DNA of 64,000 bases, from assembly GCA_951406725.2 (NCBI GenBank), contig OX597828.1, positions 76,570,001-76,634,000 on the forward strand, read 5' to 3'. The notes beneath the pieces are model-generated. The model was not told the origin of the DNA, made no database searches, and was given only the letters and a program-made list of their open reading frames with translations. Shown piece by piece: positions 9,144 through 63,384 of the stretch. How positions within the stretch are numbered: the first letter of the stretch is position 1; each line of letters begins with the position of its first letter. A program made the position numbers and the translations under genes. The DNA comes from Octopus vulgaris. Taxonomy: Eukaryota.

Positions 9144-9338
9144 AAGGCGGCACGATGGCACAGTGTTAGTTATAATTTCTTCCACTTTATTATCTGAGTT
9201 CAAATTACGCAGTAGTTGATTTTTGCCTTTCAACTTTTGGGGTCAATGAAATATTTACCAGTCAAGTACTTGGGTCGGTATAACGGAACAGTTGCCTCCC
9301 GCCACCAAATTCCACACCGTCTGCCTTCAGTAGAAAGG
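9144..9338 (+). mobile_element. tRNA-like SINE ((ATT)n-associated family)
   Basis: TGGCACAG...TGAGTTCAAATT (B-box-like)...TTGCCTTTCA...CAGTAGAAAGG(ATT)n. Homologous to 13029-13232, 35433-35575 and 39683-39895. Confidence 0.7.
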
Positions 9339-9463
9339 ATTATTATTATTATCATTATTATTATTATTATTATTATTATTATTATTATTATTATTATTAT
9401 TATTAGTAGTAGTAGTAGTAGTAGTAGTAGTAGTAGTAGTAGTAGTAGTAGTAGCAGCAGCAG

Positions 9464-9590
9464 TTTTATTTGTCTTTGCACAGTTTCTGACGCTGGTAAT
9501 GTTCTACAGTGCCAGTTGTTCACTACCACCGAACTAAGGTAACAAACCCTTACTTTTCGTGCACCATCCGGAGTATTCGAGCGGTTCCAG
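9464..9590 (-). mobile_element. 3' end of an R4/Dong-like RLE retrotransposon, family C
   Basis: The minus strand encodes GTARILRMVHEK* (compare GTAYILRRTLSIQ* and GTSHVLRRALSM* in families A and B). A distinct 3' UTR runs into a (TGC)/(TAC)/(TAA) tract. Confidence 0.6.
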
Positions 9591-10203
9591 GCTATTATTA
9601 AGTAAGAGAGCAGTGCATGCTATCAAAGTGTATATCGAAGCCCAATTTACCAATAATCTGTCTGATAAGGCTACACCAACCACATGCATCACAACCACAT
9701 GTGCATGACATGATGATCTGAAATCACATTATACAGTACACGACCTTGCAGGTGGGGCCCAATTTTCTTCGGGCTGAGTAGACCATCCCGCTCAGAAGGT
9801 GCCTGATTAAGGTTTATTTAAGAATGATGAACGAAACAACCATGAATCCAGATGTGAACTATTCAAACCTCAAAACCTTCCTCTCAACACATGGCTATGT
9901 TGCTCCCCCACTACTTCTGCTTGTGATCAGAGATGCACATACCCTCAGCTACTAAGAGACATGCTCAACTGCCCGAAATCAAGCAACTAACAAGCAGATC
10001 TATTTGCTGTAACCCACATGTAACACCAAGACAAAACATGTCCATGTTGATACTTCCAATCAGTTAAGATCAAATGTCATGCAAGTCATTGCCTGGTATT
10101 GCATCAGGGCGCTTGTCGTTCTTTTTGCTATTATTATTATTATTATTATTATTATTATTATTATTATTATTATTATTATTATTATTATTATTATTATTAT
10201 TAT

Positions 10204-10603
10204 TCAGTAGATTTATTTTCACTTTACTACCGAGCGCATTTCTGTGTGCCTTAGTTATGTGCTGTGATTTGTTGTGATGCTCTGATGGTTATTGTTTGGA
10301 AAGTGTTCTGCGTAGGATGTGTGCAGTGCCTAGTAGTGCAATTTTCTGTATGTTATATGTATTTGTAAGTGCTGGTCTTTTTGTTATGTATTTGTCTGAA
10401 TATTTTTTATCACGCCTAATGCACCTACTATGATAGGAATTGTTTATGTTTTTAGATTCCACATTCTGGTTACCTCTATTTTCAGGTTTTTGTATTTTGA
10501 GAGTTTCTCCTTTTCTTTTAGAGACACGTTTTCATCAGCCGGTATTGATACATCAATTAGAAAGCATTTTTTTTCTTCATGATCTCTGACAACTATATCT
10601 GGT
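10204..10603 (-). mobile_element. R4/Dong-like RLE retrotransposon family A, 5'-truncated
   Basis: Encodes PDIVVRDHEEKKCFLIDVSIP...LGTAHILRRTL. Closely matches 11952-12360 and 61820-62235, and is flanked on both sides by (TTA)n. Confidence 0.9.
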
Positions 10604-11951
10604 TGTTATTATTATTATTATTATTATTATTATTATTATTATTATTATTATTATTATTATTATTATTATTATTTATTGTTGCTGAGAGTAGATATACGAT
10701 CACCCTCGTCCTACATTTTTACGAATCGCAATGAATAAAATTATTTCATTTTGGATAATTTTTCATGAAGGCCACAGACACAACTGTATCCCTTTATTTC
10801 AATTGTGGTTCCCTGGAAACAAAGGAGAAAATAACTCTCATGATTTCAGTCCTAGAATCCGATGCCTTGGAAATTCTTCCTCCAAGCCTTAGAATTATCC
10901 TTTTACCTTCTAATATGATTGATTTGATGGAACATAAAGAGCGGCGGTAGTTTGTCGAGAGGAAACTGTAGAAGCAAAAGTAAGATTCAAGGGGTTTCTT
11001 ATTATCTGAAACGAGCAATGTTTATAGAACTTGGAAAAGAAAGCGAGAAACTAAAAGCTGGTTAGAATGACTTGGAACAATATCTAGAAAACTGCGAAAT
11101 GAAAATGTGTGGGTGTATGGTCTCTGATTAACAAATACGAGTTACTGATGGAAACTTTTCGAATTTTGGATTTGTACCAGTTAAAAGCAAATGGAAATAG
11201 ATTTTTTTTTCTTTTATGCGTCACTTCTACAGAATGAAATAGAAAATTATTTCTTGAGCTTCTTTTCCCTGTTTGGAGATGCAGTAAGAACAAAAAAAAG
11301 AAGAAAGAAAAAGTTTAATTTGTGAAATAAAAAAAAACTCCTTTAAGTGTAAGCTGATAGCATGGCAATTTGATACAAGAAAACCAAGAAAATCACGAAC
11401 GAAAACAAACAAGTTTTAAACAGAAAAACAAAATAATAAACATGCATACAATTTCTGAACAGAATAAACGTATTTCAGAAAACAAAGAAAATGCTTTTTC
11501 AGACAGAAACCAAAAACAGAAGATAAATAAAATTATTAATGTGAATGCTGCTTCTAACCCGTCTATTTCGGAGTTGCTTTATTTGATTGTTATAACTCTG
11601 TTTTATATAAGCCATCTAATTATTTTCCGTAATTATTTGTATAATTTTAACATCATATCGTGCCTTTCATTTTCATATTACTTTCTATGTTTCCTCACGT
11701 ACCTCGATCTACTTCTCAGAACATCTATTGTATGTGCAAAATCTGCTAGTATGAAATATTTTTCTTCTTCTTCTTCTTCTTCTTCTTCTTCTTCTTCTTA
11801 TTATTATTATTATTATTATTATTATTATTATTATTATTATTATTATTATTATTATTATTATTATTATAACTATTATTATTATTATATTATTAATATGATT
11901 ATTATTATTATTATTATTATTATTATTATTATTATTATTATTATTATTATT

Positions 11952-60799: not shown

Positions 60800-61720
60800 T
60801 GAATTATCCTTTGTTTACCGTTAACATGAAGAATTCAATAAACAGTTACCAGGGTAGCAAAATTCACGCAAGTAACAAAGATGTAGCGACCTATTCAAAG
60901 GTAGAAACTCCGGGTTAATGTGCAGTAATTTGTGTAGTATAAGTAAATAAATGGAGATGAACGCAGATGTTATTCAAATTCTTTTACTTTCGACATATGT
61001 TTCGAAGACAACATGGTTTTATTCCTTTGGAATAAACGGTGTAAAATGCAATTTTCTTATCAGGAAAGAAAGAGAACCTATCTCAACAAGACATTACAGC
61101 AATTTTGACGACTGCATAAATGATAATCAGAATGCTATTAAGTATTTAAAAAATAAAACGTTAGTAGATTCGACGTCAAAGGCAGTAAAGGGGTAAAGAA
61201 ATAAGTAGAGAACAAATAAAGAGTGATATATTGGTTGAAAAATTTTCAAAGGCTTGGAAGTAGATTTCTCTATTGAAGTAAAGTGCAAGTTGAACTAAAT
61301 GTTCAAACTATAAAGACTGGTAAAATCACTTATATGAGCTAAAGGTATGTTTCTGCCAGTGCTTACATTTATTATGTGTGTTAACAAGGTGATTCTTAGA
61401 GAAGAGAATATGGAAGAGTTCAGAGTTGCAAATCCTTTGCCCTTATCGTAAGGGAAAGATATGGACAGGATGAACCAATCTAACCTAAAATCCTTACTGT
61501 TGTCTTTAAGAAACCAAACCAATTTACTTAGCCCTGTACTATGACGTTTACTGTTATCCCTAAATGAAGAATAATGATTGGAAATTCTCTTAGATAACTG
61601 ATAAGAGAATGGGCCAGTGTAGAAGTAGACATCGGTACTTCATGAAATTTTACATTGGTATATAGAATTCTTGATCTTAGAATTACTAGACATAAATTTA
61701 ATTCTGTTGGGGTTGTCATC
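60800..61720 (-). mobile_element. Penelope-like element 3' fragment (GIY-YIG + pseudo-LTR)
   Basis: Minus strand NSIYQCKI*..FYTG..KRISNHYSSF..KRHSTGLSKLVWFLKD..LDWFIL..PY, then a sense-strand hammerhead motif. Ends at (TA)n. Confidence 0.8.
60987..61068 (-). ncRNA. Minimal type I hammerhead ribozyme motif (G8 to A variant)
   Basis: CTTTC-CTGATAA-(long stem II incl. TTTATTCC aaa GGAATAAA)-GAAA-CATATG-TC-GAAAG, with a perfect stem I and a palindromic stem III. Confidence 0.65.
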
Positions 61721-61819
61721 AGAGACCAAAACCATGTTTTAATTGCTATTATTATTATTATTATTATTATTATTATTATTATTATTATTATTATTATTAT
61801 TATTATTATTATTATTATT

Positions 61820-62294
61820 TAAGTAATATTATTTTCTATAGCGTGCTTTCACTTCACTACCGAGCACAGCTCTGTGTGCCTTGGGTATGTGCTGTGATTT
61901 GTTGTGATGCTCTGACGGTTACTGTATGGAAAGTGTTCTGCGTAGGATGTATGCAGTGCCTAGTAGTGCAATTTTCTGTATGTTATATGTGTTTGTAAGT
62001 GCTGGTCTTTTTGTTATGTATTTGTCTGAATATTTTTTTATCATGCCTAATGCACCTACTATGATAGGAATTGTTTCGGTTTTTAGATTCCACATTCTTG
62101 TTACCTCTATTTCCAGGTCTTTGTATTTTGAAAGTTTCTCCATTTCTTTTAGAGACACGTTGTCATCTGCTGGTATTGATACATCAATTAGAAAACATTT
62201 TTTTTCTTCATGATCTCTGACAACTATATCTGGTCTGTTGGCCTTAATTTCTCTATCTGTGTGTATTGACATATCCCAGAGTGTGGTTGCTTTC
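61820..62294 (-). mobile_element. R4/Dong-like RLE family A, 5'-truncated; endonuclease frame intact (61919-62272)
   Basis: NRPDIVVRD..LIDVSIP..EKLSKYKDL..IVGALG..LGTAYILRRTLSIQ*, flanked by (TTA)n and (TTC)n. Confidence 0.92.
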
Positions 62295-62437
62295 TTCTTT
62301 TTCTTCTTCTTCTTCTTCTTCTTCTTCTTCTTCTTCTTATTATTATTATTATTATTATTATTATTATTATTATTATTATTATTATTATTATTATTATTAT
62401 TATTATTATCATCATTATTATTATTATTATTATTATT

Positions 62438-62688
62438 ACTTTTTTTTCTTCTTTCAAATTTGCTTCCATTTCTTGCCGAGTGTCTTCCCGACTCCTAGGG
62501 CAAAAAAACTCATAGTATACATTGGTAGGCCATTAAACCAAACTCAATAGTTCGTTCATTTTTTTTTTAAAGTTAAATTAAAATACATGAGCAGCAACAG
62601 TTCTCACATCGACAATGCTCTTCTCAATACGTGTGATGTACCAGTTAAGACAATCTTTTGCACTTCTTGCAGGGATGGTAAGCCAGGG
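62438..62688 (-). mobile_element. R4/Dong-like RLE family B, 3' 250 bp
   Basis: Near-identical reverse complement of 36560-36812, flanked by (TTA)n. Confidence 0.92.
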
Positions 62689-63384
62689 TTGTTGTTATTA
62701 TTATTATTATTATTATTATTATTATTATTATTATTATTATTATTATTATTATTATTATAATTATTATTATTATTATGTGAGGGGCTGGAATTAGCAAAAT
62801 TAATGTTGATACTCCCAGAAAATGAACTTTTATTTAGCAGACTGGTATTATGAGAAGATATAATTTGTGAAAGATTCTTTGTGTTGGAGAAGGTAACTCT
62901 AACTATAGGAGAATTAATAATTGAATAATATCTAGAATTTTTGGAAAGTTCTTACCACCGACTTCACGGAACTGCAAAAGAAGATTTGATTTAGTTTGCT
63001 TTCCATATCTTGACATCTTTTGCTCAGCACTCACCAAAAGCTTTACACGAGAAAATATTTCCGTGTTTTTGAGCGGCTTCCTTTTATAATCAACAACCAA
63101 GCACACACATACATACAAAGAGTTATACTCCAAGATAACCACTTGTATAAACACAATGGACAGTGATTAAATAGAACGATCAATACATGCGCAGACATAT
63201 TGAAAACAATAAATCAACACTGGTGAATTTCGAATTTACTGTCAACAAATGTGTATGTGTGTGCGTGTATGTGTGTGCGTGTATGTGTGTGCGTGTATGT
63301 GTGTGTGTAATACATTTATTGAAAGTGACTTCGCAGTTTCGGAGGGGGTGGCTTACAGTTTTAAATAAATCTACATATATCATC

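What the first reader, a model, noticed from the sequence alone, without database searches (positions are those of the whole stretch)
9144..62780. Guild of retroelements sharing (AAT)n landing pads, split by strand
Seen: several long AAT/ATT tracts (9.1-10.7, 11.8-14.4, 35.6-39.0 and 61.7-62.8 kb) are strings of elements separated by the repeat. All seven RLE pieces (families A, B, C) have the (AAT)n-type strand at their sense 3' end. Both L1/Tx1-like copies and both intact SINE copies of the associated family end in (ATT)n, the opposite strand. This gives a tail-to-tail junction at 36812/36913 and a head-to-head junction at 12767/13029. Known: Dong (R4 clade) targets (TAA)n, and some Tx1-clade elements target microsatellites. 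Inference: unrelated lineages use one microsatellite niche with opposite strand polarity, and each insertion splits or regenerates the target.
Basis: partly seen in the sequence, partly recalled or inferred. Interest (0 to 1): 0.75.

Follow-up and report, generated by a model that had tools for sequence, protein, structure and literature searches.

The report
Two retroelement clans share one microsatellite
In this octopus-like genome two unrelated kinds of jumping gene sit inside the same (AAT)n repeat, almost always in opposite directions, likely because each enzyme opens a different strand, and close relatives of one kind use a different repeat, which would make them a natural test of how such elements pick their targets.

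Summary
Real, and wider than the window. The AAT tracts hold strings of 5'-truncated Dong/R4-like (RLE) elements, Tx1-like (APE) elements and SINEs. The repeat is a target, not just a tail: RLE family A has (AAT)n at 19 of 23 5' truncation points and (ATT)n at none. A young intact Tx1-like family has (ATT)n at both ends. A third repeat (F) carries an internal (AAT)n that serves as a paralogous empty site. Insertions into it, same direction versus opposite: family A 43:0, element E 74:2, Tx1-like 0:7. Corrections: the tRNA-type SINE only prefers ATT (10 of 66 random copies; none found inside F), and tract 'regeneration' is not shown. Dong on TAA and Tx1 on other microsatellites are known. I found no report of Tx1 on (ATT)n or (TATC)n, or of this strand split, but Repbase and the key 2004 survey could not be read. 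Orthologous empty sites stayed inconclusive.

The parts
9144..9338 (+). tRNA-type SINE (family S), diverged copy, followed by (ATT)n
   Evidence: 69-75% to other copies over 9193-9338; 'tRNA-type' rests on recalled A/B-box-like motifs, ARAGORN found no tRNA in the window
9339..9454 (.). (ATT)n plus (TAG)n tract; tail-to-tail junction of S and RLE family C
9455..9593 (-). RLE family C, last codons and 3' UTR
   Evidence: 85% to a longer copy in L127
9601..10128 (-). Element E: 556-nt non-coding repeat with a fixed 5' end, (AAT)n on both sides, Dong polarity; likely non-autonomous passenger
   Evidence: (9430 first-look candidates, 40 scored)
10129..10203 (.). (ATT)n tract between E (5' side) and RLE A (3' side)
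10204..10606 (-). RLE family A, 5'-truncated
   Evidence: 94.8% to full-length L121 copy
10606..10671 (.). (ATT)n tract at the 5' truncation point of A
11762..11951 (.). (TTC)n plus (ATT)n tract, 3' flank of A
11952..12766 (-). RLE family A, 5'-truncated, with zinc knuckle and nuclease region
   Evidence: 95.5%
12767..13026 (.). Compound (ATT)n tract; head-to-head junction of A and S
13029..13232 (+). SINE S, full length
13233..13247 (.). (ATT)5: tail of S and 5' flank of the Tx1-like piece
13248..13856 (+). Decayed Tx1-like ORF2 fragment, closest to the young ATT-targeting family
   Evidence: 62% aa against 52-57% to TATC families
13868..14383 (+). Tx1-like family T, 3' end
14384..14437 (.). 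(ATT)18 at the 3' end of T
35431..35569 (-). Head fragment of a SINE sharing the S head, facing the tract
35587..35684 (.). (AAT)n tract at the 5' truncation point of B
35685..36812 (+). RLE family B, young 5'-truncated copy with an open frame to the stop
   Evidence: 98.7% to L126 copy
36813..36912 (.). (AAT)n tract; tail-to-tail junction of B and T
36913..38613 (-). Tx1-like family T, decayed, 5'-truncated; no repeat at its 5' junction
38608..38718 (+). RLE family A-like 3' UTR fragment
   Evidence: 84%
38719..38980 (.). (AAT)n/(GAT)n tract, 3' flank of the A-like fragment
61747..61818 (.). (ATT)n tract, 3' flank of A
61819..62304 (-). RLE family A, 5'-truncated
   Evidence: 95.2%
62305..62437 (.). 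(TTC)n plus (ATT)n tract between A (5' side) and B (3' side)
62438..62694 (-). RLE family B, 5'-truncated
   Evidence: 91.7%
62695..62774 (.). (ATT)n tract at the 5' truncation point of B

Best explanation
Dong/R4-like RLE elements and Tx1-like APE elements both sit inside pre-existing (AAT)n/(ATT)n tracts in opposite, family-fixed orientations, likely because in target-primed reverse transcription the RLE nicks the (ATT)n strand and the Tx1-like APE nicks the (AAT)n strand. Shown: element anatomy, repeat at both junctions, orientation bias, use of a pre-existing tract, and tandem and nested strings. Inferred: the nicked strand, endonuclease-set specificity, and that the non-coding element E is mobilised by the RLE machinery. 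Each insertion leaves repeat on both sides, so later insertions stack up. That gives head-to-tail strings within a clan and tail-to-tail or head-to-head junctions between clans. SINE S is likely a Tx1-type passenger with only a loose ATT preference. Sister Tx1-like families target (TATC)n; in both Tx1 cases the strand predicted to be nicked is the purine-rich one.
For: Anatomy: A and B encode RT plus zinc knuckle, and A aligns to R2 proteins through the C-terminal nuclease. The young Tx1-like ORF2s are APE-RT-zf-RVT, best solved match L1 ORF2. Top-hit copies, window copy excluded: A 3' AAT 28 of 29; A 5' AAT 19 of 23, ATT 0; B 3' AAT 22 of 26; T 3' ATT 21 of 26. Random 1.2 Mb, copies with an intact 3' end: A 5' AAT 8 of 10, E 9 of 21 (ATT 1), control SINE K 0 of 101, background 0.8%. 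Tract-centred count: A-D 27 AAT: 0 ATT, E 22:0, S 2:16. Young Tx1-like family with a 1145-aa ORF2: ATT at 5 of 5 3' ends and 4 of 4 resolved 5' ends. Inside repeat F: A 43 sense: 0 antisense, E 74:2, Tx1-like 0:7. A-tail to Tx-tail junctions 5, A-tail to A-tail 0.
Against: No cleavage data; strand choice is read from orientation. Old family T has a clear ATT run at only 7 of 13 5' junctions, 2 partial, 4 without (by eye); single T-type ends followed by AAT exist (1 of 26 AAT, 1 both). Of 23 A 5' flanks, 4 lacked an AAT run ((AAG)n or (ACT)n), so specificity is not absolute. The Tx1-in-F count is small (7; two-sided p=0.016) and sense and antisense patterns use different anchors. The APE hairpin-loop region is almost the same in ATT and TATC families (its role is recalled from L1 work), which does not favour a purely endonuclease-set choice. 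No parent LINE sharing E's ends was found. The S-tail likeness to Tx1 3' ends is weak (p about 0.04, uncorrected over 24 comparisons).
Confidence: 0.68

Rival explanations
1. Targeting is real but is set mainly by priming. Each RNA carries a few repeat units at its 3' end and anneals to any nick or break in a complementary tract, so the RNA end rather than the endonuclease fixes both repeat type and polarity.
For: It fits all orientation data. ATT and TATC families are 71-72% identical with a near-identical hairpin loop. Tx1-like and A ends carry an AATAAA shortly before the junction, so transcripts could end inside the flanking repeat (inference).
Against: Published work attributes target choice mainly to the endonuclease (PMC4494074 and PMC3812793, passages). 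The ATT and TATC endonucleases do differ at other positions.
Confidence: 0.24
2. The repeats are tails made by template slippage during reverse transcription, and clustering is passive: AT-rich insertion bias, survival, or later deletions that bring tails together.
For: RTE elements generate microsatellites this way (PMC2887409, seen as listing and start of abstract only). It fits SINE S partly: 56 of 66 random copies lack a 5' ATT run, one copy shows an apparent 16-nt target duplication in non-repeat DNA (L209), and none was found in F.
Against: It cannot explain repeats at variable 5' truncation points, full-length Tx1-like copies bounded by ATT or TATC at both ends, or oriented insertion into F's internal tract.
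Confidence: 0.06
3. Assembly or repeat-slippage artefact joining unrelated repeats at shared microsatellites.
For: Some tracts are hundreds of bases long (L319); contigs of public runs break at the tracts.
Against: Mis-joins would not give family-specific polarity across dozens of loci on many contigs, and many junction tracts are only 15-40 nt.
Confidence: 0.02

Closest known systems
Dong (R4 clade; silkworm Dong, DongAg, DongBg)
   Same: RLE-type non-LTR element inserting into TAA microsatellites (PMC3812793, passages). Dong-R4 is abundant and recently active in Octopus vulgaris (PMC13282606: 51 families in the supplement, 5 recently active in Table 1).
   Different: At least four families here plus further distinct 3' UTRs, a high-copy non-coding passenger (E), and a shared tract with an APE clade. 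Membership by RT phylogeny was not tested.
Kibi, Koshi and crocodilian Tx1 families (Tx1 clade)
   Same: APE-RT elements specific for microsatellites: (TC)n, (TTC)n, (TTCC)n, (TTTC)n (PMC4494074, passages).
   Different: Targets here are (ATT)n and (TATC)n, in sister families 71-72% identical. Neither target is named for Tx1 in the passages read.
SINEU with Tx1-Mar; bipartite non-autonomous LINEs of R2, RTE, Ingi, Vingi
   Same: Non-autonomous passengers inferred from a shared target (PMC4494074, PMC5786205, passages).
   Different: PMC5786205 lists no bipartite non-autonomous form for R4. E shares the Dong target and polarity but showed no sequence likeness to the RLE families in hand.
R1 and R2 in 28S rDNA (recalled)
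   Same: An APE and an RLE lineage exploiting one multicopy target.
   Different: R1 and R2 use separate sites of a gene (recalled); here it is the same three-base unit, used on opposite strands.

Membership tests
Dong / R4 clade | RT followed by a CCHC zinc knuckle and a PD-(D/E)xK-type nuclease in one ORF | tested here: met
   Pfam RVT_1 and zf-RVT; alignment to R2 proteins over residues 136-887 including the knuckle and PD...D...K region, E 1.8e-36; motif name recalled and as given in PMC4640811
Dong / R4 clade | Insertion into (TAA)n with repeat on both sides | tested here: met
Dong / R4 clade | RT groups with R4/Dong rather than R2, NeSL, CRE or HERO | not tested
   No reference R4/Dong sequence was returned by any search
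Dong / R4 clade | 5' self-cleaving ribozyme | tested here: inconclusive
   No Rfam ribozyme hit in L121, L287, L142; the true 5' end of B was not reached
Tx1 clade (L1 group) | ORF1 plus ORF2 with N-terminal APE, RT and C-terminal zinc motif | tested here: met
   ORF1 has only a weak CCHC knuckle hit (E 0.041)
Tx1 clade (L1 group) | Target-specific insertion | tested here: met
   ATT family 5 of 5 and 4 of 4; TATC families 13 of 13 3' ends and 12 of 12 resolved 5' ends; copies were chosen for long open frames, not at random
Tx1 clade (L1 group) | RT groups with Tx1L, Kibi, Koshi | tested here: inconclusive
   Homologues were unnamed or hypothetical proteins; the tree holds no named Tx1 reference
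SINE partner of the Tx1-like families (S) | 3' tail homologous to the partner LINE | tested here: inconclusive
   Terminal likeness over about 28 nt, p about 0.04 uncorrected
SINE partner of the Tx1-like families (S) | Same strict target as the partner | tested here: not met
   10 of 66 random copies with a 5' ATT run, 0 AAT; 0 in F: a polarised preference, not strict specificity
Non-autonomous Dong passenger (E) | Same target and polarity as the autonomous element | tested here: met
Non-autonomous Dong passenger (E) | Ends homologous to a parent LINE | tested here: not met
   No likeness to families A-D or other RLE 3' UTRs among fetched loci; only part of the genome's RLE families were in hand

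The most novel reading that the evidence does not exclude
One microsatellite is partitioned by strand between an RLE and an APE nuclease lineage. A recent Tx1 radiation switched between (ATT)n and (TATC)n with almost no change in the usual specificity loop, so that the RNA 3' end rather than the nuclease programs the target. E is an undescribed kind of R4-mobilised non-coding element with no LINE-derived tail.
Probability: 0.2. Interest if true: 0.75.

Novelty: new variant of a known kind. Interest (0 to 1): 0.5.

Why it matters
How APE-type elements target microsatellites is described as not well understood (PMC3812793). Intact sister families that differ in target, plus an unrelated RLE on the same repeat in the other orientation, allow direct domain and 3'-end swap tests. 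The pattern also explains much of the AAT landscape of this genome: 65 of 118 long single-strand tracts in the random sample touch one of these elements. That matters for microsatellite markers, for repeat annotation, and for insertion-polymorphism calls, which short reads likely miss when both flanks are simple repeat (inference).

Tried and rejected
Orthologous empty sites by laying public contigs on L287 and L059 (four runs each): no joint skipping the element was listed, the tool skipped the repeat tracts, and element-derived contigs flooded the tables. This is uninformative, not evidence of fixation. The first chaining of T copies suggested T lacked 5' repeats; longer stretches showed that deletions had broken the chains. 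Rfam found nothing for E or F beyond repeat-driven miRNA noise. The 5' fold of E is no better than shuffles (z -1.49). The tree fixed the TATC families and the T copies as clades (UFBoot 100 each) but not the direction of the target switch (59-73). Apparent strand exceptions were tracts that flip from AAT to ATT and were counted twice. T was too rare in the random sample to test (6 fragments, none with a 3' end). No earlier scan notes exist for this genome. Not held: Kojima and Fujiwara 2004, Xiong and Eickbush 1993, and one id tried for the ribozyme paper.
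Full report
Setting. The window lies at G000:C15:76570001-76634000 in a 2.8-Gb assembly. Size and repeat make-up suggest an octopus; that is my inference, no call names the organism.

Observation. The four tract clusters exist and are strings of elements separated by (AAT)n/(ATT)n. Mapping with a library of real copies gives seven RLE-type pieces, all with the AAT-type strand 3', and Tx1-like and SINE copies ending in (ATT)n. 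Both named junctions are confirmed.

What the elements are. Near-full-length A and B copies (about 3.9 kb or more) encode RT and a zinc knuckle. A aligns to R2 proteins through the C-terminal nuclease. Family T is old (about 80% between copies) and belongs with young intact families whose ORF2 is APE-RT-zf-RVT. Placement in the R4 and Tx1 clades rests on anatomy, target and published octopus annotation, not on a tree with named references.

Tail or target. Top-hit copies, window copy excluded: A has AAT at 28 of 29 3' ends and 19 of 23 resolved 5' truncation points, never ATT. B has AAT at 22 of 26 3' ends. T has ATT at 21 of 26. E has AAT at about 26 of 29 5' ends and 27 of 29 3' ends (by eye), including 5'-truncated copies. 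For T, 13 longer copies gave 7 clear, 2 partial and 4 absent 5' ATT runs (by eye). Top hits favour young copies, so I drew 120 random 10-kb stretches from 25 large contigs (some lengths were lower bounds). Among copies with an intact 3' end, the 5' flank held AAT in 8 of 10 A and 9 of 21 E (1 ATT), ATT in 10 of 66 S (0 AAT), and neither in 101 of 101 copies of a control SINE. Background was 0.8% per strand. B (1 of 3) and C (0 of 3) were too few to judge, and their library copies were incomplete at the 5' end. Counting from the tracts, 65 of 118 single-strand tracts touch a library element, with polarity 27:0 (A-D), 22:0 (E) and 2:16 (S) for AAT:ATT (5 mixed tracts were left out).

A built-in empty site. 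Repeat F has a head, an internal (AAT)n of about 21-190 nt and a tail, so empty copies show the tract before insertion. L267 holds an E inside it, with repeat on both sides. Exact-pattern counts over the genome, same direction as F versus opposite: A 43:0; E 74:2, where both reversed copies carry a locally flipped tract and so keep their own polarity; Tx1-like 0:7; S 0:0. Reversed-pattern controls were 0. A tail meets a Tx1-like tail 5 times and another A tail 0 times. These are lower bounds from exact motifs and short gaps, and the two directions use different anchors. S may simply be older than F (untested).

Young Tx1-like families. A family with a 1145-aa ORF2 has (ATT)n at 5 of 5 3' ends and 4 of 4 resolved 5' ends, and forms tandem arrays of about 5.87 kb period. 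Families with 1149-aa, 1159-aa and related ORF2s have (TATC)n at 13 of 13 3' ends and 12 of 12 resolved 5' ends (one 5' window unresolved in each group). These copies were picked for long open frames. The two groups are 71-72% identical. The window's decayed pieces are closer to the ATT family (50-62% against 31-57%). The tree does not resolve the direction of the switch.

Mechanism. In target-primed reverse transcription the nicked strand primes cDNA, so orientation reports which strand was opened (established knowledge). The RLE clan would nick (ATT)n; the Tx1-like clan would nick (AAT)n or (GATA)n. Every insertion leaves repeat on both sides, which keeps the site usable and builds the strings. 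Whether the nuclease or the RNA 3' end sets the choice is open: the loop recalled as the L1 specificity hairpin is nearly the same in ATT and TATC families. Net growth of tracts is not shown (p=0.22). E is assigned to the RLE machinery by shared target and polarity only; no parent was found.

Prior knowledge. PMC3812793 (passages) lists Dong on TAA, Kibi on TC and Koshi on TTC, and calls the mechanism not well understood. PMC4494074 (passages) adds Tx1 families on (TTCC)n and (TTTC)n and names no ATT, AAT, TAA or TTA target in its text. PMC13282606 (part 1 of 3, passages and a supplement search) counts Dong-R4 and L1-Tx1 families in Octopus vulgaris; the word 'target' does not occur in its text or supplement. 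PMC9115989, PMC8967140, PMC4640811, PMC3747384 and PMC5786205 were seen as passages. Eight library searches turned up no report of Tx1 on (ATT)n or (TATC)n or of the strand split; most results were seen as listings only. Repbase entries, the 2004 survey and figures or supplements of the Tx1 papers were not seen and may already note these targets.

Verdict. A real, genome-wide arrangement built from known kinds of element, with target and polarity features that I could not find in print. New variant of a known kind; interest 0.5.

Noticed in passing
L183 (- strand, about 8550-8800), L271:3450-3720; many copies in G000: Repeat F: tRNA-like head, internal (AAT)n, and a tail with a CTGATGA...GAAAC arrangement that recalls a hammerhead ribozyme (recalled motif; Rfam found none). 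It spreads new AAT landing pads.
   Followed up: partly
G000:C4:93801747-93820051; contigs C47 and C50: Tandem arrays of the intact ATT-targeting Tx1-like family with a period of about 5.87 kb; small contigs C47 and C50 hold several units.
   Followed up: partly
L326-L335, L339-L354: Several young Tx1-like families specific for (TATC)n, stacking in tandem inside these tracts.
   Followed up: yes
random sample L171-L290: The SINE head of S is shared by several modular SINE families with different tails; one tail resembles the Tx1-like 3' end by eye.
   Followed up: no
window 21271-22173: DNA transposon with about 110-nt terminal inverted repeats and a transposase-like frame at 21365-22051 (Tc1/mariner type is recalled, no Pfam hit).
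   Followed up: no
window 1004-1717: 237-aa frame resembling the GIY-YIG end of Penelope-like elements (recalled; no Pfam hit).
   Followed up: no
window 24832-25227: RT fragment followed by a PHD-like finger on the minus strand, a separate LINE.
   Followed up: no
L121 (oriented 2421-2550): Full-length family A begins with short tandem repeats of about 22 nt right after the AAT tract.
   Followed up: no
L287:9627-10000: Family B continues upstream through a degenerate GAT/GGT/AAT stretch that is covered at repeat-like depth, so part of its 5' region is itself microsatellite-like.
   Followed up: partly
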